Virus record (IMG/VR): IMGVR_UViG_2585427783_000007
Length of the DNA: 26,156 nt
From: a virus
Taxonomy: Duplodnaviria; Heunggongvirae; Uroviricota; Caudoviricetes
Direction: 5' to 3' (one strand)
How positions within the stretch are numbered: the stretch's first letter is position 1; each line of letters opens with the position of its first letter. The notes beneath the pieces were generated by a model that did no database searches, was not told the DNA's origin, and saw nothing but the letters and a program-made list of their open reading frames with translations. Position numbers and translations under genes: made by a program. Positions 5,093 through 14,295 of this stretch are shown here, in pieces.

Positions 5093-5209
5093 GAAACCAG
5101 AACATGCACACACAAAAAAACCGCTTGCCATGCCGCAATCAGTCAGGTTACATTTCCGCTGCACCTCATAAAACGGGTGCCGGGATTGGAACCCCGCTGA
5201 CTATGCACG

Positions 5210-5235
5210 CGCACAACCGCGCCAGCGGTTTTTTT
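5210..5235 (+). terminator. Hairpin plus T7 run (weak intrinsic-terminator-like element)
   Basis: CGCACAA-CCGC-GCCA-GCGG-TTTTTTT-GTGCG: inner 4-bp GC stem followed by seven T; outer 7-bp arms CGCACAA/TTGTGCG. Confidence 0.3.
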
Positions 5236-5290
5236 GTGCGTACCGTATCGCCACGTCTTTTTCGCGTCAGAATTATGGTGGGGCGTATGG

Positions 5291-5309
5291 GGCCGACTTC
5301 GGTCGGGCC
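5291..5309 (+). other. Stable GC-rich hairpin with a UUCG-type tetraloop
   Basis: GGCCGAC-TTCG-GTCGGGCC, within a 322-bp GC-rich non-coding block. Confidence 0.35.
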
Positions 5310-5346
5310 GGATTCGTGCGTAGCCGGTAGTTCCAACCCTGTACGT

Positions 5347-5387
5347 CTCACCACCCCGAGCTTGGAACCTCTGGATGGTGAGTTTTT
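5347..5387 (+). terminator. Stem (CTCACCA/TGGTGAG) with large loop followed by T5 run
   Basis: 7-bp arms at 5347-5353 and 5376-5382, then TTTTT at 5383-5387, just upstream of the RBS of the 5415 gene. Confidence 0.3.
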
Positions 5388-6089: not shown

Positions 6090-8912
6090 ATGACGGCAGA
6101 GTACCTCAGGGACTGGCAACAACCGCGCCACGCAGTGGGGCGTGAAGGAACGGGGATCCCCGCTCCTGAATCCGCGCTTTCCTCCTGGCTGGATGCCTAC
6201 CGGGCAGAGAACGAGCGCCGCCAGGAAATGGCTGATGCGGCGTTCTCAGCCACGCCGCTGGGCAACCTGATTAATAAAAGCCTGGACGCACAGGAAAAAC
6301 AGGACAAAACCATCACACTGGCAGGAGACGCCAGAAAACAGGCACGTGGCGCGGTGGATGAAGCCATGGCCTCGCTGCGCCTGCTGCCGTCCTATCTGCG
6401 CGATCCGCTTATTCGCCACCTCTCCTTCCTGCGCAAAAAACAGGAAGCCGATCGCCGGAAAGGCAAAAAGAGCTGGCAGGCGGAACGCTATGCACGCGGA
6501 ACCCTGCGCAAAATATTCGAACGTCTGGATAGCACTGACGGACGCTGGCTGACACCGGGTTATCGCTCCCTTGCCGGACGCGAACGCCTGGACGATTTGC
6601 TTTACCTGCCGCAGCTCAACAAACACCAGATACAGACGCTGGCCACCATGACGGCGGCGATGTTCAGCAGCACCTTCGAAAAACTCTGCGATGGCTTTGG
6701 CGCGACCGATGGCGAGCTGACCATGGATGTAACCCTGAAGGCGTATCAGATGCTGGCCCGCATGGCGTTACACCTGCACGCCATGCCTCCACATTATGAC
6801 GCACTGACAACAGACAAAGACCGGAGGAACGAACCGGACACGGAGCTGCTGCCGGGCGCAATCCTTCGCCTGACCTGTGCGGAATGGTGGAAACGCAAAC
6901 TGTGGCTGTTACGTTGCGAGTGGAGAGAAGAACAACTCCGCGCCGCCTGTCTGGTTTCCAGAAAAACATCACCCTATCTGAGCCAGGACGCGTTAAGCGA
7001 GTTTCGCGCACAGCGCGAGAAAACACGCGATTTCCTGAAAAGTTTCATGCTGGAAAATGAAGACGGGTTCACGATTGATCTCGAGACAGTGTATTACGCG
7101 GGAGTAAGTAACCCGGTTCACCGTAAGGCAGAAATGATGGCCACCATGAAGGGACTGGAACTTCTGGCCGAAGCCCGTGGCGACAAAGCGGTGTTTCTGA
7201 CTGTCACCTGCCCGTCAAAATACCACGCCACAACGGAGAACGGTCATCCGAATCCCAAATGGAACGGGGCCACAATGCGCGACTCCAGCGATTACCTGGT
7301 TAACACGTTTTTTGCGGCGGTCCGCAAAAAACTGAACCGCGACGGCCTGCGCTGGTATGGCATCCGCACGGTGGAGCCTCATCATGACGGCACCGTGCAC
7401 TGGCATATGATGGTCTTTGCACATCCGGAAGAAATCGACACCATTGTGTCCCATACCCGCGATATTGCCATTCAGGAAGACCGCCACGAGCTGGGCAATG
7501 ATATTACTCCGCGCTTTAAGGTGGAGTATGTCGACGGCTCAAAAGGCACGCCAACCAGCTACATCGCCACCTACATCGGAAAGAACCTGGACAGCCGCGC
7601 CGTGGATGGCATCGACCCGAAAACGGGCAAGCCACGCATGGACCACGAAACCGGAAAATCAATGGCCGAGAGCGTGGAGCGCGCCATCGGCTGGGCGCGC
7701 CTTCACCGGGTCCGTCAGTTCCAGTTCTTTGGCATCCCCTCCCGTCAGGTGTGGCGTGAACTGCGCCGCCTTGCCAGCCAGATGGCACGCAATCCGGAAG
7801 GCCCGCAACGGCTGAAAGATGATGCAATGGATGCGGTACTCGCTGCCGCCGATGCCGGGTGTTTTGCCACCTACATTGAAAAACAGGGTGGCGTGCTTGT
7901 TCCACGCAAGGACTACCTGATTCGCACCGCCTACGACCTCGCAGATGAGCTGAACGATTACGGCGAACAGAGCGTACAGATTTACGGGATCTGGTCACCA
8001 CTCATCGGGGAATCCTCCCGTGTGTGCACGCATCCGGATAACTGGAAGCTGGTAAGACGTAAACCGGAAGCGGAAGACAGCGCCCGCGAAAATGGTTTTG
8101 ACCTTCAGGACGGCCCTGCCGCCCCTTGGACTCGTGGCAATAACTGTCCCCGTGTACAGGAAACGGACAACAACGGGACAGAACAGCCGGAAGAACGGCC
8201 AGCACCGTGGCCGCAGCTTCCTGACGGCGTTGACGTGAACGAATGGATGCGCTCACTGAAACGGCACGAACGCCGGGCGCTGATGCGTTCGCTGCGTGAC
8301 AAACAGGCAAAAAACAGCAGTGATGAAATGCAGAGCTGGACACAGAGCCGCAAACAGCAGCGGCCTTTGCCTGATAACCACGAATTACTCGCTAAAGAAT
8401 GGCGGGAATCTGCCGAATCTCTCGGCCTGCATATCGGTGAACAGCAGATGCAGCACCTGTTACGGGGCGGCAGCCTGTACGTTGACGGCAGCATCATTGC
8501 ACCGCAGGGATTTGAAATTGTACGCAAACCGGATACCCGCCCGGACAGCCGAATCACGCAGCTCTGGCAGCGCCTGAGCCGTAATCACGGCGTAAGCAGC
8601 ACGGAGATCCGCCATAACCCGGTCGCCAGCTATCTGGAACAGCTGGGGGCATCAGACCCCGAAGCCGCCGCACGTCTGGCATCCACACTTCAGCAGGACC
8701 AGAACACCATGACCCCCCCCGTTACCGTGCTTTCTGACATGCTGCGCGCCATCCGCGACGCAGAGCACGCACAGAGAATCAGTGAAACCACTGAACGTGC
8801 CCGCCGCAAAGCAGACCTGCTGCGGGGTGGCCTGACCAGTGGAAACAAAAAACAGACAGAAACGGGATTCACAAATCCCGTAAATGAGCAAAAAACGCGC
8901 CGCGATATATGA
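6090..8912 (+). CDS. A: Rolling-circle replication initiator (P2 gpA-like), 940 aa with extended C-terminus
   Basis: HUH motif in EPHHDGTVHWHMMVF and paired-tyrosine motif YIATYIGKN; N-terminal and core resemblance to P2 gpA as recalled; about 180 aa longer than the ~760-aa P2 protein. Confidence 0.9.
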   Translation: MTAEYLRDWQQPRHAVGREGTGIPAPESALSSWLDAYRAENERRQEMADAAFSATPLGNLINKSLDAQEKQDKTITLAGDARKQARGAVDEAMASLRLLPSYLRDPLIRHLSFLRKKQEADRRKGKKSWQAERYARGTLRKIFERLDSTDGRWLTPGYRSLAGRERLDDLLYLPQLNKHQIQTLATMTAAMFSSTFEKLCDGFGATDGELTMDVTLKAYQMLARMALHLHAMPPHYDALTTDKDRRNEPDTELLPGAILRLTCAEWWKRKLWLLRCEWREEQLRAACLVSRKTSPYLSQDALSEFRAQREKTRDFLKSFMLENEDGFTIDLETVYYAGVSNPVHRKAEMMATMKGLELLAEARGDKAVFLTVTCPSKYHATTENGHPNPKWNGATMRDSSDYLVNTFFAAVRKKLNRDGLRWYGIRTVEPHHDGTVHWHMMVFAHPEEIDTIVSHTRDIAIQEDRHELGNDITPRFKVEYVDGSKGTPTSYIATYIGKNLDSRAVDGIDPKTGKPRMDHETGKSMAESVERAIGWARLHRVRQFQFFGIPSRQVWRELRRLASQMARNPEGPQRLKDDAMDAVLAAADAGCFATYIEKQGGVLVPRKDYLIRTAYDLADELNDYGEQSVQIYGIWSPLIGESSRVCTHPDNWKLVRRKPEAEDSARENGFDLQDGPAAPWTRGNNCPRVQETDNNGTEQPEERPAPWPQLPDGVDVNEWMRSLKRHERRALMRSLRDKQAKNSSDEMQSWTQSRKQQRPLPDNHELLAKEWRESAESLGLHIGEQQMQHLLRGGSLYVDGSIIAPQGFEIVRKPDTRPDSRITQLWQRLSRNHGVSSTEIRHNPVASYLEQLGASDPEAAARLASTLQQDQNTMTPPVTVLSDMLRAIRDAEHAQRISETTERARRKADLLRGGLTSGNKKQTETGFTNPVNEQKTRRDI

Positions 8913-8959
8913 AGCGCACACAAAACAGGCAAAAACGGGATTTCAGAATCCCGTAAACG
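8849..8959. repeat. Two 38-bp direct repeats (31/38 identical), each with an 8-bp perfect hairpin ACGGGATT-N4-AATCCCGT; candidate centromere or operator
   Basis: Unit 1 at 8849-8886 (inside the last codons of A), unit 2 at 8922-8959 (30 bp upstream of the parM ATG); mismatches cluster in the hairpin loops. Confidence 0.6.
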
Positions 8960-8988
8960 ATTAATTAATCAACATAAGGAAAAGCGAC

Positions 8989-9948
8989 ATGAAAATTTGT
9001 ATCGACGACGGCTCCACCAACATCAAGCTGGCATGGACTGAGAATGGCGAACGCCGCAACGCCATCAGCCCGAACAGCTTCAAGTCGGAATGGTCTGCGC
9101 CGTTCGGTGGCATGCAGCCCGCGAACTACATGCTTGATGGCGTGCGCTATGGTTTTGATCCGGTTAGCGATCGCTTTGTCCAGACGACCGACACGCAATA
9201 CCAGTACAGCGATGTGAATGTAATCGCCATTCATCACGCGCTGGTCAAATCAGGCATCACGCCACAGGAGGTGGATGTGGTTGTCACCCTGCCACTGAGC
9301 GAGTATTTCGACACAAACGCACAGCCGGACATGGCCAACATCAACCGCAAAAAAGCGAACGTTATGCGCCCGGTGGAGTACCAGAACGGCGAAGCATTCA
9401 CTATCCGTAACGTGCGGGTTATGCCTGAATCCATTCCGGCTGGCTTTAAAGCACTGGCTGACATGAGTCCGTTTGAATCCCTGCTGATTGTGGATTTAGG
9501 CGGAACCACGCTGGATGTGGCAAAGGTTCAGGGGCAACTGGCAGGTATCAGCCAGGTGTTTTGCGATCCACACGTAGGCGTCTCCCTGATGGCCGGTGCC
9601 GTGCTGTCGGTGATGGCCGCTAACGGTATGCGTACCAGTCACCACATCGCCAATACCATTATCGAACATCGCCATGATGAAGCCTGGTTGCGCCAACACA
9701 TCCACAATGACGCGCATTACGCCAGCCTGATGGCGGTTATTCGTGAAAAGGAAGAAACACTGAAACAACGCGTGATCCGCGCGCTGGCGGGTTTTTCGGG
9801 TTACGGGCGGGTGATGGTTGTCGGTGGCGGGGCGGAGATTGTGGCACCCGCTATCCGCGAAGCCTGCGGAGTTAATGCGACTTTCATCGCGGACGAGGTG
9901 CCACAGTTTGCTCTGGTTAATGGGCTGTACGCAATGGACAAGGAGTAA
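8989..9948 (+). CDS. parM: ParM/StbA-family actin-like segregation ATPase
   Basis: 319 aa; MKICIDDGSTNIKLAW..., ...LLIVDLGGTTLDV..., ...VMVVGGGAEI... are actin/ASKHA phosphate and adenosine motifs; co-linear resemblance over the whole length to plasmid R1 ParM as I recall it. AAGGA RBS 8 nt upstream. Confidence 0.85.
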   Translation: MKICIDDGSTNIKLAWTENGERRNAISPNSFKSEWSAPFGGMQPANYMLDGVRYGFDPVSDRFVQTTDTQYQYSDVNVIAIHHALVKSGITPQEVDVVVTLPLSEYFDTNAQPDMANINRKKANVMRPVEYQNGEAFTIRNVRVMPESIPAGFKALADMSPFESLLIVDLGGTTLDVAKVQGQLAGISQVFCDPHVGVSLMAGAVLSVMAANGMRTSHHIANTIIEHRHDEAWLRQHIHNDAHYASLMAVIREKEETLKQRVIRALAGFSGYGRVMVVGGGAEIVAPAIREACGVNATFIADEVPQFALVNGLYAMDKE

Positions 9949-9952
9949 ACCA

Positions 9953-10267
9953 ATGACGACACCAACCAGACGGATAAGTTTCTATCTGAAGCCAGTCGCC
10001 GTCAATAGTGAACGGGAGGCGTGTAATTACCTCGACAGCCTGCCAGCCTCTGAACGCAGCCGCGCGCAACGCGCGGCCTTTCTGGCCGGGCTGGCACTCA
10101 TAAAACGCGATCCTGCATTTGCCTATTGGTTGGCCGAATGGCCGGAAGAAGGAGCTGCGCCAGCCAAGAATAATATTCAGAGTAAATATGCCAGCACACC
10201 TGCCACCGGAAGCAATCACAGCACTAGCGAGATAAGAAAGAACATTCAGTCATTTTTCCCAGAGTGA
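9953..10267 (+). CDS. parR: ParR-like centromere-binding adaptor (104 aa)
   Basis: ATG at 9953 with AGGAG inside the parM 3' end; N-terminal RRISFYLKP...LDSLPASERSRAQRAAFLAGLAL matches the pattern of the R1 ParR ribbon-helix-helix region as recalled; follows parM as in R1. Confidence 0.7.
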   Translation: MTTPTRRISFYLKPVAVNSEREACNYLDSLPASERSRAQRAAFLAGLALIKRDPAFAYWLAEWPEEGAAPAKNNIQSKYASTPATGSNHSTSEIRKNIQSFFPE

Positions 10268-10286: not shown

Positions 10287-10721
10287 ATGGCAACTATCCC
10301 CAAAAAATGGTTACAACGCAAAATTGCAGACCTTGAATCGTGTCGTGAAGACATCCCGTTTGGCCTTGATGAAAACGATCACAATATGTTAATCGCACTG
10401 AAAATCGCACTCACATCGCTGGAAGCAGAGCCAGTTATGTTCTGTATATCAGGACAAAATGTAGATTCAGAAGAACATGTATCAACCAGCAAAGCGGTTG
10501 TTGATGCCTGGGTTGAAGAATGGAATCAGGTTGACGGAAGTCCAGGCGAACCACTGTACAAAACTATGCCACTCTACTATCACGCTGCCTTGCCAGCGCC
10601 GGTAGTGCCGGATGAAATGTATTGGCAGGATGCGCCAGTTGAAGGCAGCAGCAAAGCGGCTGCATACGCTACAGGCTGGAACGCCTGCCGCGCCGCTATG
10701 CTTCATGGGAAAGGAGAGTGA
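10287..10721 (+). CDS. Hypothetical acidic protein (144 aa)
   Basis: ATG at 10287 with AGGAGAGGAG RBS; same operon as parMR; no family recognised. Confidence 0.6.
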   Translation: MATIPKKWLQRKIADLESCREDIPFGLDENDHNMLIALKIALTSLEAEPVMFCISGQNVDSEEHVSTSKAVVDAWVEEWNQVDGSPGEPLYKTMPLYYHAALPAPVVPDEMYWQDAPVEGSSKAAAYATGWNACRAAMLHGKGE

Positions 10722-10722
10722 T

Positions 10723-10986
10723 ATGGCAACTTTAACAAAAAAAGAACGGGCATGGTTGAACGAATTACAGGACGTTCTTGATCGCTGCCCATCACCGAAA
10801 AAAATTGGTTTTTACACCATTGGCGATAAAAGCATTTACCTGTATGACCTGCGCCGCATGGATGAAATCATGGAGGCTCTTGATAATCGTTCTTCGATGG
10901 ATTGGTGTGTTGCTGTCCATGATATGAATGCAGGGTTTGATGAAAAGATTTTGTTCCCCTCATCAGTTGAAAGCACAGCAGGATAA
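10723..10986 (+). CDS. Hypothetical acidic protein (87 aa)
   Basis: ATG at 10723, 1 nt after the upstream stop, with AAGGAG 6 nt upstream; last gene before a terminator. Confidence 0.6.
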   Translation: MATLTKKERAWLNELQDVLDRCPSPKKIGFYTIGDKSIYLYDLRRMDEIMEALDNRSSMDWCVAVHDMNAGFDEKILFPSSVESTAG

Positions 10987-11021
10987 GGACCCAGCAAATA
11001 TACACAACCTATAAAACACTA

Positions 11022-11048
11022 AAGCGCCTCAGGGGCGCTTTTTGTTTG
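11022..11048 (+). terminator. Intrinsic terminator ending the parM-parR-unknown operon
   Basis: AAGCGCC-TCAGG-GGCGCTT (7-bp stem) followed by TTTGTTTG, 35 bp after the last stop codon. Confidence 0.55.
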
Positions 11049-11073
11049 CACAAAAGTGCACAAATTTGCACAA
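11047..11073. repeat. Three TGCACAA direct repeats at exact 10-bp phasing
   Basis: TGCACAA at 11047, 11057 and 11067, one helical turn apart, followed by a T7 run; likely a protein-binding array in the cos-proximal region. Confidence 0.4.
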
Positions 11074-11319
11074 TTTTTTTGAACGACTTTTTACCCTTCC
11101 GGCCCGCATGGCGGCTGGATCCGTCAAGGATCCGTGCGTGCACAAAAAAACGCGTTTTTTCTGCGCGCAGGTGACGGGGGAACAGCCCGCGTTTCAGGGG
11201 GTAAATAGCACTCCCTGAACGATGTCGCAGAGATACAACAGAATGGCTGTATTTCTCACGCTGAGCGTGAAAAAGACGTGAGGGCTTTTGATTTGATGGG
11301 GTGGCAGATAAGGCCGTCA

Positions 11320-11350
11320 AAATCGCACTGAGGCGGCGAAAACATGCAGT
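11320..11350. other. Candidate cos (cohesive-end) site
   Basis: GAGGCGGCGAAAACATGCA, about 150 bp from the Q stop, partially resembles the P2/186 cohesive-end sequence as I recall it (roughly 13 of 19 positions). The position between the A-side cargo and Q matches P2. Low confidence; memory-based. Confidence 0.3.
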
Positions 11351-11497
11351 CAGCGCAGTGGGATTGCGTAAGAGTCTGACCGTCGATGATGGCAATAAGC
11401 AGGAAAGCGTCGTGAAATTATCTGATTGATACAGGAGCTGGAGAGTCGGGGCATAAATTTTTTATGCCCCGGCGAAGCAGCAGACAAGCGAAGCGCG

Positions 11498-12544
11498 TCA
11501 GGATGTGGGCTGGGTGTCTAACAGTGCGTAAGGGTTAAAGCGGATCACCTCTTCGCCAAGCCAGTCATTGATGTGCTTCATGGCCTCCATGACAGGCATC
11601 AGCTCGTTAATTGCGTAAACCCGCGCGGCCTTCTCCACATCACCAAACGCACTTTTTTCGCCCGGCATCGCCCCCATCAGTTGCGGCGGAACGCGGTGCG
11701 CAGCCAGCACATCATCACGGGATGCCGCCTTAACATTCATGAACTCATCTTTTGCGGTGATCTGCTGGAACGGCAAAATTTGCACCCCCTCTTTGCCCCC
11801 GTTGGGCGCATGAATGAGCACGTTTTTAAATGCACCACCACCACGCGCACCCTGTAACGTTTCTTTCAGGGAGTCCATGCTTTCGCGGTTTACCTGCGCT
11901 GCACCGATGTAGATGATGCACCCGGCGTGGGATCCGTTGTCGTAGTACAGTTTTCTGAACATGTCCGCCGAATGAGAAAGGCTGGCCGAGAGTAATGCGC
12001 CAAGATATTCCGGCATGCCGTAGATTTCCTGGTTAATATCCGGATTCATCAGGTGGCACACTTTGCCAGGGCGAAACTGGAACGCGTCCTTGCCATCCTG
12101 CACATACCACCATGATTCAAGATCGCTTCCGCGTCGCATGTATTTCGCCAGGGCGTGCCGTAATTTAAGCGGTTCGCCGAGCATATTGCTACGAAGCTCA
12201 AGGAATGCGTTACCGAACACAAACCAGTCCAGCGCCAGCGCCGAGAAATCCTGCCGGGAAAGCAGCGGGTGCGGGATGTAGCAACCGAGTAATACATTGC
12301 GCTTAAAGTAAAGCGCAGACTGATGCCAGGACGTTTGCCGGGCAGCTCTTGCCAGACCGTACCAGTCCACCGGGGTTTCATACCACCGCCCGTTATCAGC
12401 ACAGTACATATTATCCAGCAGGTCATGCCCGGTCAGGCGATAAGGACCATCAAATGTGAATGCACTGAGCGATGATTCTTTCCTGAGCGCATCAGCGAGA
12501 TCAATGCGTGAACTCATGCGCACTTTTTTATTTTTTCTGCTCAT
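11498..12544 (-). CDS. Q: Portal protein (P2 gpQ-like), 348 aa
   Basis: Size and position next to cos and downstream of the terminase on the minus strand; its ATG overlaps the P stop (ATGA). Confidence 0.85.
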   Translation of the reverse strand: MSRKNKKVRMSSRIDLADALRKESSLSAFTFDGPYRLTGHDLLDNMYCADNGRWYETPVDWYGLARAARQTSWHQSALYFKRNVLLGCYIPHPLLSRQDFSALALDWFVFGNAFLELRSNMLGEPLKLRHALAKYMRRGSDLESWWYVQDGKDAFQFRPGKVCHLMNPDINQEIYGMPEYLGALLSASLSHSADMFRKLYYDNGSHAGCIIYIGAAQVNRESMDSLKETLQGARGGGAFKNVLIHAPNGGKEGVQILPFQQITAKDEFMNVKAASRDDVLAAHRVPPQLMGAMPGEKSAFGDVEKAARVYAINELMPVMEAMKHINDWLGEEVIRFNPYALLDTQPTS

Positions 12545-14295
12545 CAGAACTCCATAACCGTGAAACGCTCGTTTTCTCCTTCGCCGCCAATCGGTTCGTT
12601 AATGACAGCAAGCATGGTTGCCCACGCAAGGTCGCCGTGGCTGATCCCCCTCGCTCGGTCCGTTTCGTAAGTGATAAAGCCGCCCGGTGTTTTCACCTTA
12701 CGCACGGCGTTAAAGGCCGCGACCAGCTCGCGTTCGGCGCGATCGTATTCCCACCGCCCGGCACGCATTATTTGCAGCATTTTCAGTACCAGCGACCGTT
12801 TTGATGACAGCGTGAAGGTGTACGGAATAGCAGCAGGGAAAAACCGTTTCACTATCTGATAAACAGCCTCCCCGTTCCCGCCCGTCACATCAATGCCGAT
12901 GTGTTCCACGTTATAGCGACACGTGAACTCTTCAATGACTCTGGCCTGTTCTTCAAACTCCAGCCCCTGAACGCGTCGCGTCTCCACCGTTCGGAAACGG
13001 CCACCAGGAACAGCCGGAGGAACCACCACGGACACAGCACCGCTGTCGCCGTTGCCACTGCTGCCGTTTGCGTCATACCCAATCCATACCGGACGATTCC
13101 CCATCGGGCGGGGAGCAAAAGGTTTCCAGTCTTTCCAGTCGTCGTATCCGTCAACACCGCAGCCAATCAGGATATTCAGGTTAAATGCCGATTCCCCTTC
13201 GCGGACAAACTCACACATATAGAGATTGAGGAACTCGTCTTCGGTGTTTTCATCACGAATTTCGTCGATATCGGTGTGTTTCCAGCCGTGATTAACCACA
13301 TCTTCCAGCGTGACAATTTGCCGCCAAGTCCGGTCAGGGCAGATAAGCCCGTTATGCAGCGTTTTCCAGTCCACAGAAAAACGCTGGCGTTTATGCGAGG
13401 CCTTTTTCTCGTTCCAGCGGTCGCCGTTCCAGTAGGCGTACGCCTCGTGCGTTTCGGTGGATGGCGTGGAGAAGTAGGTGCGCCGCAGTCCGCTGAGGGT
13501 TGCCATAGCGCCAGCCACCTTGCGCAGTTCAGCAAAGCGACTGACCCAGAAAAATTCATCAAAATAAAAATTGCCCGTATAGGACTGTGCCGACGCAGCA
13601 GAAGTGCCGAGAAAATGCAGCTCTGCGCCGTTGGAGAGGATGATTTTATCGCCCCCTTTCAGCTCCACATCAACTTCAGCCGCGACCTTCTGAATAATGC
13701 TTTTAAACTGGAACGCCTGACGACGCGACGCAGACAAAAAAATCTGGTTACGCTGGTAAGGTTGCGCCACATCGTCACGCAGCGCCATCAGCAGAGCTTC
13801 CTGTGCAAAATACCAGGTCGCCCCAATCTGTCGGGATTTCAGGATCATCCTGTTACGTATCCCGGCTTCCCTGCAAAGTGTCAGGGAGTCAAACCAGCCC
13901 CGCTGATGCCACTCCAGCCTGCTGATGATTTTTTCCCGCAGTGCGGCAATCTGTTCCGGCGTGAAATGATTTTTAAGTTTTTTCGCCCGGCCTTTCTTTC
14001 CTGCGGCCATCACATCCGGCTGGCCATCATGCAGCTTTTTAAGCTGCCGGGTCAGCAGGTCTATTTCCTTAAAGTCACCGCCTGTTTTATTCTGTTTTTC
14101 AGTAAGCTGGATGAGGCGCGCATCGATGGACTGCGTGACACGCTGCACGGGGGGCGTTTCATCCCACTGGTCGCGTTTTTTCCACGCATAAATCGTGTTC
14201 GGGTTTATTCCCATCAGACGTGATATTTCTGCGGGCGGATAACCCTGCCAGTAAAGTTGCCGCGCACGCTGGCGCACAAAAGCGTCCTGAATCAT
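12544..14295 (-). CDS. P: Terminase large (ATPase/nuclease) subunit (P2 gpP-like), 583 aa
   Basis: Size and position, divergent from the scaffold gene exactly as P2 P/O; N-terminal HTH-like segment; translationally coupled to the portal gene. Confidence 0.85.
   Translation of the reverse strand: MIQDAFVRQRARQLYWQGYPPAEISRLMGINPNTIYAWKKRDQWDETPPVQRVTQSIDARLIQLTEKQNKTGGDFKEIDLLTRQLKKLHDGQPDVMAAGKKGRAKKLKNHFTPEQIAALREKIISRLEWHQRGWFDSLTLCREAGIRNRMILKSRQIGATWYFAQEALLMALRDDVAQPYQRNQIFLSASRRQAFQFKSIIQKVAAEVDVELKGGDKIILSNGAELHFLGTSAASAQSYTGNFYFDEFFWVSRFAELRKVAGAMATLSGLRRTYFSTPSTETHEAYAYWNGDRWNEKKASHKRQRFSVDWKTLHNGLICPDRTWRQIVTLEDVVNHGWKHTDIDEIRDENTEDEFLNLYMCEFVREGESAFNLNILIGCGVDGYDDWKDWKPFAPRPMGNRPVWIGYDANGSSGNGDSGAVSVVVPPAVPGGRFRTVETRRVQGLEFEEQARVIEEFTCRYNVEHIGIDVTGGNGEAVYQIVKRFFPAAIPYTFTLSSKRSLVLKMLQIMRAGRWEYDRAERELVAAFNAVRKVKTPGGFITYETDRARGISHGDLAWATMLAVINEPIGGEGENERFTVMEF

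What the first reader, a model, noticed from the sequence alone, without database searches (positions are those of the whole stretch)
10287..10986. Two unknown acidic proteins co-transcribed with parMR in the tin/old-equivalent hotspot
Genes of 144 and 87 aa follow parR with strong RBSs and 1-19 bp spacing, ending at an intrinsic terminator at 11022-11048. No OLD-like nuclease or other recognisable defence gene is present in this locus. Their tight coupling to a partition module and lack of recognisable domains make them candidate partition accessories, anti-defence or exclusion factors.
Basis: partly seen in the sequence, partly recalled or inferred. Interest (0 to 1): 0.6.

Follow-up and report, generated by a model that had tools for sequence, protein, structure and literature searches.

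The report
Mobile two-gene cargo beside prophage parMR
The two small acidic genes after parMR are real, but they are a travelling accessory cassette also found in lambda-like phages, virulent phages and IncI2 plasmids, not part of the partition machinery, and their function is still unknown.

Summary
ORF3 (10287-10721, 144 aa, pI 4.7) and ORF4 (10723-10986, 87 aa, pI 4.8) follow parM/parR with strong ribosome-binding sites, gaps of 19 and 1 nt, and one strong terminator.

The functional link to partition does not hold. This parMR occurs in 1187 of 5426 complete E. coli genomes, but only 66 have ORF3/ORF4 after it. The stretch 10402-10990 is 98% identical to an IncI2 plasmid and also occurs in a lambdoid nin region.

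- **ORF3** is a mosaic of Ea22-type modules. It has a different leader and lacks the Ead_Ea22 Pfam domain.
- **ORF4** is ST64T "Orf-87" (phrog_1714), an autonomous family of about 85 aa with 216 clusters at 50% identity.
  - Its model is confident (pLDDT 90.7) but has no structural neighbour in PDB.
  - It nearly always ends in Gly.
  - It occurs in temperate and virulent phages and next to IncI2 relaxosome genes.
  - It sits 1 nt after its upstream gene, whichever that is, wherever one abuts it.

The arrangement is already listed, as "hypothetical", in Rousset et al. 2022.

My best reading is passively co-transcribed hotspot cargo. It is probably early-acting proteins that bind host or defence factors, but this is untested. 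Interest is modest.

The parts
8845..8960 (.). Two 43-nt direct repeats (8845-8887 and 8918-8960), each holding a 20-bp palindrome ACGGGATT..AATCCCGT. They straddle the gpA stop codon just upstream of parM. They are a candidate parC centromere or ParR operator, which was not tested.
8989..9948 (+). parM, an actin-like partition ATPase of 319 aa. It is a conserved part of P88-like prophages.
   Evidence: Pfam StbA_N 2.7e-82 and ParM C-terminal domain 1.1e-67; phrog_691; present in 1187 of 5426 E. coli genomes
9953..10267 (+). parR/stbB, the partition adaptor of 104 aa. Homology to P88 and phage 520873 ends inside its 3' third, at 10098-10149.
   Evidence: PF10784 3.8e-25; phrog_2515
10287..10721 (+). 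ORF3, a 144-aa acidic mosaic protein. Codons 1-38 form a leader module. Residues 39-110 are the body module shared with Stx-phage Ea22 variants. Residues 111-144 are a tail ending in WNACRAAMLHGKGE.
10402..10990 (+). The mobile cassette proper: ORF3 from codon 39 plus all of ORF4. It is 98.3% identical to IncI2 plasmid pHN1122-1. It is 97.7% identical by megablast (89% by gapped blastn) to the nin region of lambdoid phage vB_EcoS-689R5.
10704..10727 (+). Module-boundary linker ..CATGGGAAAGGAGAGTGATATGGC... It encodes the ..GKGE stop of the upstream gene, the ribosome-binding site and the ATG of ORF4. The identical 24 nt recurs before a different gene in the plasmid.
10723..10986 (+). ORF4, 87 aa, a member of the ST64T Orf-87 / phrog_1714 family. 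It is an autonomous small alpha/beta protein that ends in ..STAG.
11021..11048 (+). Intrinsic terminator that closes the parM-parR-ORF3-ORF4 unit. It belongs to the conserved prophage backbone.
11022..11497 (.). [quoted passage not shown] It is present in about 1100 E. coli genomes.

Best explanation
ORF3 and ORF4 are horizontally mobile accessory cargo, not partition components. They sit in the variable gpA-gpQ hotspot of a P88-like (Xuanwuvirus, P2-related) prophage.

**How the cassette arrived (inferred).** The stretch 10402-10990 was probably imported by recombination at short conserved linker sequences. These linkers flank such modules in lambdoid early-gene arrays. In this prophage the cassette is read passively, from transcripts that cross parM-parR and stop at the backbone terminator.

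**What each protein is (shown).**
- ORF3 is an Ea22-type mosaic protein: a helical leader, a small body module and a C-terminal helix.
- ORF4 is an autonomous protein of about 85 aa with a confident predicted fold that has no known relative. It nearly always ends in Gly. Wherever a gene abuts it, it starts 1 nt after that gene's stop codon, whatever the gene is.

**How they most likely work (inferred).** Both are probably small, acidic, non-enzymatic proteins made early after a mobile element enters or wakes up in a cell. They would act by binding a host factor or a defence factor.

**Confidence by step.** About 0.9 that this is mobile cargo unrelated to partition. About 0.4 that the function is counter-defence or host interference by binding.
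For: **Not tied to parMR**
- 1187 genomes carry parMR against 66 with the full block.
- P88 and 520873 have other cargo after parR.
- Rousset Table S5A lists StbA + Plasmid_stab_B with many alternative partners, and lists this exact arrangement for NZ_CP023849.
- GC3 drops from 0.65 (parM) and 0.53 (parR) to 0.43 (ORF3) and 0.40 (ORF4).

**Mobility**
- The cassette is 98.3% identical to IncI2 pHN1122-1 and is present in a lambdoid nin region.
- ORF4 homologues occur in lambdoid pL or nin arrays of Edwardsiella, Serratia and Salmonella prophages and in phage ST64T.
- They also occur in Chivirus and Avunavirus phages, which I take to be virulent, and in 142 plasmid records.

**Autonomy of ORF4**
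- The upstream genes are unrelated families, yet the gap is always 1 nt and the linker is shared.

**Real, folded protein family**
- 216 clusters at 50% identity, almost all 80-94 aa.
- W11 is conserved in 100%, G34 in 98% and P23 in 95% of representatives. The last residue is Gly in 93 of 109.
- The model has pLDDT 90.7.

**Position on the plasmid**
- In the IncI2 plasmid the pair lies about 2.3-2.7 kb from mobC, on the side of the intergenic gap opposite the relaxase.
- By the criterion of PMC11541004, that side is the leading region, which is enriched in anti-defence genes.

**ORF3 relatives**
- ORF3 shares its body at 91% identity with Ead_Ea22 proteins. Ea22 proteins are early and acidic and are proposed to act through a host partner (PMC10834534, PMC7093339).
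Against: - There is no functional evidence of any kind. The mechanism rests on genomic context alone.
- The P2 hotspot is best known for defence systems, not counter-defence.
- The net charge of ORF4 (-4) is too small for a DNA mimic.
- The IncI2 oriT was not mapped here, so "leading region" is an inference. A ParA-like TraL gene also lies in that stretch.
- Expression from the parMR transcript is inferred from spacing only. No promoter was found by the consensus scan.
- ORF3 may be a functionless recombination product. Its model is weak (pLDDT 70, pTM 0.38).
Confidence: 0.5

Rival explanations
1. Prophage-encoded defence or superinfection exclusion, functionally analogous to P2 old/tin. The two proteins would be expressed from the lysogen and block other phages.
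For: - The location is the gpA-gpQ hotspot, where defence systems are concentrated.
- Sister prophages carry cargo such as AAA/HTH_50 + Peptidase_S8 after the same parMR.
Against: - Neither protein matches PADLOC.
- Neither has an enzymatic or membrane domain.
- ORF4 homologues are carried by Chivirus and Avunavirus phages (virulent, to my knowledge), among replication and nucleotide-metabolism genes.
- They are also carried next to plasmid relaxosome genes. These are unusual places for a lysogen-protecting defence gene.
- ORF3 and ORF4 are not an obligate pair.
Confidence: 0.15
2. Modulators of the phage's own lysis-lysogeny decision. ORF3 would act like Ea22, which favours lysogeny in lambda and Stx phages, with ORF4 as a separately encoded C-terminal-domain equivalent.
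For: - ORF3 shares a module of about 70 aa and a tail with Stx-phage Ea22 variants.
- The Ea22 literature reports mosaic, acidic C-terminal domains and a pro-lysogenic effect.
- In many relatives the ORF3 body is fused to a DUF551 domain exactly where ORF3 stops and ORF4 begins.
- Rare natural fusions join a coiled-coil protein to the ORF4 domain (P0287, P0351).
Against: - ORF3 lacks the Ead_Ea22 N-terminal coiled-coil domain (no Pfam hit at E <= 1).
- ORF4 also occurs in phages I take to be virulent and in conjugative plasmids, which have no lysogeny decision.
- ORF4 is unrelated to DUF551 (hhalign probability 0.07%).
- ORF4 has no fold match to any PDB chain. I assume, without checking, that the search copy includes the lambda Ea22 C-terminal domain.
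Confidence: 0.2
3. Partition accessories: third and fourth components that work with ParM and ParR.
For: The genes lie on the same strand with tight spacing after parR and share one terminator.
Against: - Only 66 of 1187 parMR-bearing genomes have them.
- Only 6 of 80 near-identical ORF4 loci have ParM nearby.
- The codon composition differs from parMR.
- The same DNA occurs in elements that lack this parMR.
Confidence: 0.03
4. Hitch-hiking remnant. ORF3 would be a functionless by-product of linker-mediated recombination, and only ORF4 (or neither gene) matters to this prophage.
For: - The mosaicism is extreme: leader, body and tail swap independently.
- The structural model is weak.
- The three parts of ORF3 have different nearest relatives.
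Against: - The reading frame is intact and the ribosome-binding site is strong.
- The body module is 89-100% identical across many elements.
- Conserved joint peptides (ASLEAE, PLY..PVVP, ACRAAML) are kept at the protein level.
Confidence: 0.1

Closest known systems
Ea22 / Ead-Ea22-like proteins of lambdoid phages (exo-xis region; Pfam PF13935)
   Same: ORF3 shares a body module of about 70 aa (91% identity to residues 86-155 of P0185) and the C-terminal tail with Stx-phage Ea22 variants. Like them it is acidic, mosaic and encoded in early accessory arrays.
   Different: ORF3 has a different leader of about 40 aa in place of the Ead_Ea22 coiled-coil domain, with no PF13935 hit at E <= 1. It has no globular C-terminal domain. 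It also sits in a P2-like prophage rather than in a lambdoid pL operon.
ST64T Orf-87 / phrog_1714 (uncharacterised phage protein family)
   Same: ORF4 is a full-length member (E = 1e-50, residues 1-87 of 87). The FSL SP-030 homologue is annotated "similar to ST64T Orf-87". The same protein, WP_000224227.1, is on IncI2 plasmids.
   Different: Nothing structural differs. Only the host element and the upstream partner do.
P2 old/tin and other gpA-gpQ hotspot cargo (Rousset et al. 2022, PMC9122126)
   Same: It occupies the same genomic slot. parMR in this slot and this exact five-gene arrangement are already listed in their Table S5A.
   Different: It has no similarity to Old, Tin or any PADLOC model. 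Its distribution in virulent phages and plasmids differs from that of typical prophage defence cargo.
Leading-region anti-defence genes of conjugative plasmids (PMC11541004)
   Same: The ORF3-like and ORF4 pair lies a few genes from the relaxosome genes of IncI2 plasmids, on the side opposite the relaxase and pointing away from it.
   Different: It has no homology to ArdA, KlcA, PsiB, SSB or anti-CRISPR families covered by Pfam. The oriT was not mapped and early expression has not been shown.
DUF551 (PF04448) C-terminal domains of Ea22_V2-type proteins
   Same: In relatives, DUF551 occupies the position where ORF4 begins: fused after the ORF3-like body and tail.
   Different: The ORF4 profile is unrelated to DUF551 (hhalign probability 0.07%), and ORF4 is a separate reading frame.

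Membership tests
Type II (ParMRC) partition system, as an extra component | Co-inheritance with parM/parR across related elements | tested here: not met
   66 of 1187 parMR-bearing E. coli genomes have ORF3/ORF4. 6 of 80 ORF4 loci have ParM nearby. P88 and 520873 lack them.
Type II (ParMRC) partition system, as an extra component | Physical interaction with ParM, ParR or parC | not testable with these tools
   No multimer prediction or binding assay was available.
Ead/Ea22-like (Pfam PF13935), for ORF3 | Match to the Ead_Ea22 N-terminal coiled-coil profile | tested here: not met
   ORF3 has no Pfam hit at E <= 1. In relatives PF13935 covers only residues 2-91, upstream of the LEAEA|V joint.
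Ead/Ea22-like (Pfam PF13935), for ORF3 | Shared post-coiled-coil body and tail of Stx-phage Ea22 variants | tested here: met
   ORF3 residues 42-111 are 91% identical to P0185 residues 86-155. The tail WNACRAAML.GKG is shared with P0143.
Ead/Ea22-like (Pfam PF13935), for ORF3 | Pro-lysogenic activity and tetramer formation | not testable with these tools
   These are known only from experiments on lambda and Stx Ea22 (PMC7093339, PMC10834534).
phrog_1714 / ST64T Orf-87 family, for ORF4 | Full-length profile match and conserved length | tested here: met
   E = 9.6e-51 over residues 1-87 of 87. There are 216 clusters at 50% identity, mostly 80-94 aa.
phrog_5117 / phrog_660, for ORF3 | Profile match | tested here: met
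   E = 2.2e-24 and 2.4e-19. Both families have unknown function.
DUF551 (PF04448), for ORF4 | Profile similarity, including the WISCSERMP...HWMPLP motifs | tested here: not met
   No Pfam hit. hhalign of A1 against A3 gives probability 0.07%.
Known anti-phage defence systems (OLD, Tin and other PADLOC models) | Match to any defence protein model | tested here: not met
   None of the four proteins has a PADLOC hit at E <= 1.
Known anti-defence families with Pfam models (ArdA, KlcA/ArdB, PsiB, Ocr-like) | Profile match | tested here: not met
   No Pfam or NCBIfam hit for ORF3 or ORF4. No dedicated anti-defence library was available.
Ubiquitin-like / beta-grasp proteins with a C-terminal Gly, for ORF4 | Beta-grasp fold | tested here: not met
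Ubiquitin-like / beta-grasp proteins with a C-terminal Gly, for ORF4 | Conserved C-terminal Gly | tested here: met
   93 of 109 representatives end in Gly, with the motif (S/G)(T/V)(A/S/C)G. This alone does not make it a ubiquitin-like protein.

The most novel reading that the evidence does not exclude
ORF4 (the ST64T Orf-87 family) would be a new class of counter-defence or host-takeover protein with a previously unseen fold.

- It would be shared by temperate phages, virulent phages and conjugative plasmids.
- It would be translationally coupled to whichever gene precedes it.
- It would act through its nearly invariant C-terminal ..S-T-A-G tail. For example, the tail could plug into a host immune enzyme or serve as a decoy substrate for it, such as a ubiquitin-like conjugation machine.
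- ORF3-type proteins would be exchangeable scaffolds that present such modules.
Probability: 0.2. Interest if true: 0.7.

Novelty: new member of a known kind. Interest (0 to 1): 0.33.

Why it matters
- **For this locus.** The result removes a tempting but wrong inference, that genes tightly packed behind parMR must serve partition. It also shows that the arrangement is already catalogued as hotspot cargo.
- **More broadly.** ORF4 is in roughly one in six complete E. coli genomes. This figure is estimated from an evenly spaced sample of the hit list. The identical protein is carried by IncI2 resistance plasmids next to their relaxosome genes. Homologues are in virulent Salmonella and E. coli phages.
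- **As a lead.** A small, well-folded, fold-orphan protein with that host range and a conserved C-terminal Gly is a reasonable candidate for anti-defence or host-interference screens. This is a candidate, not a discovery: no function has been shown.

Tried and rejected
- **Domain searches.** Pfam, NCBIfam and PADLOC gave nothing for ORF3 or ORF4. PDB sequence searches gave only noise.
- **Fold searches with the confident ORF4 model.**
  - Foldseek against PDB gave a best E of 1.0.
  - BFVD returned only a family member.
  - The afdb50 library was not available.
- **ORF3 model.** It was too weak (pLDDT 70, pTM 0.38) to search with.
- **Domain fusions.** The longer proteins from the 1.84-billion-protein profile search had no Pfam domains.
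- **ORF4 as a split-off DUF551.** Rejected by hhalign.
- **Toxin-antitoxin reading.** Rejected: both proteins are acidic, no model matches, and they are not an obligate pair.
- **DNA-mimic reading for ORF4.** Judged unlikely because the net charge is only -4.
- **Conserved neighbour of ORF4.** None was found. Upstream partners fall into at least three unrelated tail classes, and downstream genes vary in length.
- **Literature.** Searches for WP_000224227 and phrog_1714 found nothing. The supplements of PMC11541004 had no relevant entry.
- **IncI2 oriT.** I could not map it, so the leading-region placement remains an inference.

Full report
**1.

- ORF3 runs 10287-10721 (144 aa, pI 4.67, net charge about -11). 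ORF4 runs 10723-10986 (87 aa, pI 4.83, net charge about -4).
- They follow ParM (8989-9948; Pfam StbA_N 3e-82 plus the ParM C-terminal domain 1e-67) and ParR (9953-10267; Plasmid_stab_B 4e-25).
- The gaps are 19 nt and 1 nt. The ribosome-binding sites are GGAGAGGAG and AAGGAG.
- One strong hairpin with a T-run at 11021-11048 closes the unit: -16.3 kcal/mol, z = -4.8.
- The consensus scan found no plus-strand promoter and no convincing terminator before 11021, only two weak hairpin matches inside parM. Co-transcription is therefore plausible but inferred.
- None of the four proteins matches a PADLOC defence model.

**2. Where this is**

- The window is a P88-like (Xuanwuvirus, Peduoviridae) prophage of E. 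coli.
- The genes lie between the gpA-like replication endonuclease (6090-8912) and the portal and terminase genes (11498-14295, minus strand).
- Rousset et al. 2022 define exactly this interval as the old/tin hotspot of P2-like phages. They note that about a quarter of P2-like phages carry a putative partition system there (PMC9122126).

**3. parMR and the two genes are not a unit**

| Measure | Count |
|---|---|
| Complete E. coli genomes with this parMR (>=80% coverage) | 1187 of 5426 |
| Genomes with the contiguous four-gene block | 66 |
| IMG/VR loci with 99-100% identical ORF4 that also have ParM and portal within 4 kb | 6 of 80 |

- P88 and phage 520873 have other small genes after parR.
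- Table S5A shows the same StbA/StbB pair with quite different partners: AAA/HTH_50 + Peptidase_S8, DUF4760, zf-C4_ClpX and others.
- Homology to P88 and 520873 breaks inside parR at 10098-10149 and resumes at 11022-11033, inside the terminator.
- The flank 10987-11497 is present in about 1100 genomes. The terminator is therefore backbone, and everything between these points is exchangeable cargo.
- GC3 falls from 0.65 (parM) and 0.53 (parR) to 0.43 (ORF3) and 0.40 (ORF4).

**4. The cassette travels**

- Window 10402-10990 (ORF3 from codon 39 plus ORF4) is 98.3% identical to IncI2 conjugative plasmid pHN1122-1.
- The same stretch occurs in the nin region of lambdoid phage vB_EcoS-689R5, where the first gene is annotated "Ea22 protein". 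Identity there is 97.7% by megablast and 89% by gapped blastn.
- By megablast, the ORF3-body-plus-ORF4 stretch is in 183 complete E. coli genomes.
- ORF4 alone is in many more, with 158 places on plasmids. An evenly spaced sample of the hit list suggests roughly 900-1000 genomes in total.

**5. ORF3 is a mosaic**

BLAST against its relatives shows three independently assorting parts:
- **Leader, residues 1-38/50.** It is 98% identical to the start of proteins with other bodies.
- **Body, residues 39/42-110.** It is 91% identical to residues 86-155 of 199-aa "ead/Ea22-like" proteins.
- **Tail, residues 111-144.** It ends in WNACRAAMLHGKGE.

Other points on ORF3:
- The joints are short conserved peptides: ASLEAE(A/P)V, PLY..P.PVVP and ACRAAML.
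- In the Ea22-like relatives, Pfam PF13935 covers only the part upstream of the first joint. ORF3 itself has no PF13935 hit at E <= 1.
- In many relatives the same body and tail are fused to a DUF551 domain at the point where ORF3 stops.
- This matches the published picture of Stx-phage Ea22 variants. They share a segment of about 63 aa that lambda Ea22 lacks, and they carry swappable acidic C-terminal domains (PMC10834534).
- The AF2 model is weak (pLDDT 70, pTM 0.38). It shows a helical hairpin, a small beta/alpha module, a proline-rich linker and a C-terminal helix.

**6. ORF4 is an autonomous, well-folded, fold-orphan family**

- It is a full-length member of phrog_1714 (1e-50). This is the "ST64T Orf-87" family.
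- A profile search of 1.84 billion representatives found 216 clusters at 50% identity. Nearly all are stand-alone proteins of 80-94 aa. The few longer ones have no Pfam domain.
- Conservation across 109 representatives:

| Position | Conserved in |
|---|---|
| W11 | 100% |
| G34 | 98% |
| P23 | 95% |
| E8 | 94% |
| D35 | 93% |
| Last residue is Gly, motif (S/G)(T/V)(A/S/C)G | 93 of 109 |

- The AF2 model is confident (pLDDT 90.7, pTM 0.71). The order of elements is helix-strand-strand-helix-helix-strand.
- It is unrelated to DUF551 (hhalign probability 0.07%).

**7. A conserved linker explains the tight spacing**

- Wherever a gene abuts ORF4, that gene's stop codon lies 1 nt before the ORF4 ATG (TGA-N-ATG), even though the gene differs. 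In two Salmonella prophage loci ORF4 stands alone after a hairpin.
- Upstream genes seen include ORF3-type proteins, a 163-aa XF1762/Mom-like protein, a 150-aa protein in Chi-like phages, an 80-aa Cys-rich protein in Edwardsiella, and others.
- In 78 near-identical loci the upstream tails fall into three classes..AMLHGKGE* (25)..IRIKGE* (27) and ..PYKE[NS]* (26).
- The 24-nt junction at 10704-10727 recurs verbatim before a different gene in the IncI2 plasmid.
- In most lambdoid loci the next gene starts 10 nt after the ORF4 stop, with an MTTITKER.. or MTTFTDKEL.. leader.
- From my own knowledge, such boundary sequences were described for lambdoid mosaicism (the HK620 and nin-region literature). 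I did not verify this in a paper here.

**8. Range of carriers**

- **Lambdoid pL (exo-xis) arrays:** Edwardsiella, Serratia and ST64T.
- **Lambdoid nin regions:** E. coli and Salmonella.
- **Chivirus phages (Casjensviridae):** among thyX, PAPS-reductase-like and deoxyribosyltransferase genes.
- **Avunavirus Av-05 (Vequintavirinae):**. That Chivirus and Avunavirus phages are virulent is from my own knowledge.
- **More distant phages:** Vibrio, Aeromonas and Yersinia phages at 35-40% identity.
- **Plasmids:** 142 plasmid records, 57 of them typed conjugative.
- **Position in pHN1122-1:** the pair lies about 2.3-2.7 kb from mobC, across the only sizeable intergenic gap and pointing away from the relaxase.
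- PMC11541004 places relaxosome genes in the lagging region and shows that the opposite, leading side is enriched in anti-defence genes. I did not map oriT, so this placement is an inference.

**9. What it most likely does**

- **Shown:** the cassette is mobile cargo, independent of parMR. ORF4 is an autonomous conserved protein. ORF3 is an Ea22-type mosaic.
- **Inferred:** both are non-enzymatic binding proteins. They would be made early when a mobile element enters or is induced, and they would act on a host factor or a defence factor.
- **Why defence is less likely than counter-defence.** Virulent phages and plasmid entry regions are unusual places for a lysogen-protecting defence gene.
- **Why it cannot be excluded.** The slot itself is a defence hotspot.
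- **Ea22-like role for ORF3.** This is possible, but it would not explain ORF4 in plasmids and virulent phages.
- **Partition accessory role.** This is effectively excluded by the distribution.

**10. Novelty and score**

- The arrangement, parMR in this hotspot, and both protein families are already in public catalogues as "hypothetical" or "unknown function". Nothing here is categorically new.
- What this analysis adds:
  - the partition link is shown to be incidental;
  - the mosaic structure and linker-mediated mobility are laid out;
  - ORF4 stands out as a widespread protein with no known structural relative, a conserved C-terminal Gly, and a distribution across phages and plasmids.
- That makes ORF4 a reasonable target for functional screens. 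Interest is 0.33.

Noticed in passing
window 5161-5235 and 5271-5358 (+): Rfam gathering-level matches to isrK Hfq-binding RNA (67 bits) and C4 antisense RNA (80 bits), side by side in the early region of the prophage. This looks like a P1/P7-type antisense immunity module.
   Followed up: no
window 8845-8887 and 8918-8960: Two 43-nt direct repeats, each containing a 20-bp palindrome ACGGGATT..AATCCCGT. They straddle the gpA stop codon immediately upstream of parM. They could be the parC centromere or the ParR operator.
   Followed up: partly
window 10098-10149 (inside parR): Homology to phages P88 and 520873 ends within the 3' third of parR, not after it. The left edge of the variable slot therefore cuts into the ParR C-terminus, and ParR variants differ there.
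   Followed up: partly
window 11501-11523; L003 14603-15237: Strain 4/0 carries about 614 bp more here, next to the portal gene, including a 174-aa gene (WP_000236495). This is a second small variable slot at the right end of the hotspot.
   Followed up: no
L002 5075-5566 (phage PhiR44_2), and the same gene in several E. coli prophages (H43-H45): In sister P88-like prophages ORF4 is preceded by a 163-aa "XF1762 family" protein. It has a weak, sub-threshold Pfam match to the Mom DNA-modification family (E = 1e-4, 22 bits against a cutoff of 27).
   Followed up: partly
L004 6964-7863, L018 3964-4863, L012 4598-5605: ORF4 homologues in Chi-like phages and in a Salmonella lambdoid prophage lie within one or two genes of a PAPS-reductase-like gene. 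In Chi-like phages they are also near a Dam methylase and a nucleoside deoxyribosyltransferase. I did not assess whether this is more than chance.
   Followed up: no
L014 7283-7816 and 7813-8133 (IncI2 plasmid pHN1122-1): Just downstream of ORF4 in the plasmid, the 24-nt junction recurs before another gene. A further gene then begins with the same MTT(F/L)TDKELIKEIRERIGSLDVRD leader but has a different body. The plasmid therefore carries a small array of these mosaic genes, followed by hicAB.
   Followed up: partly
window 6090-8912: The gpA-like replication endonuclease is 940 aa. From memory, P2 gpA is about 761 aa, so this would be a long C-terminal extension. I did not check this.
   Followed up: no
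P0287 and P0351: These are rare single-cluster proteins in which a coiled-coil (Ea22-like) N-terminal part is fused to all or half of the ORF4 domain. They could be natural fusions or frameshift and assembly artefacts.
   Followed up: no
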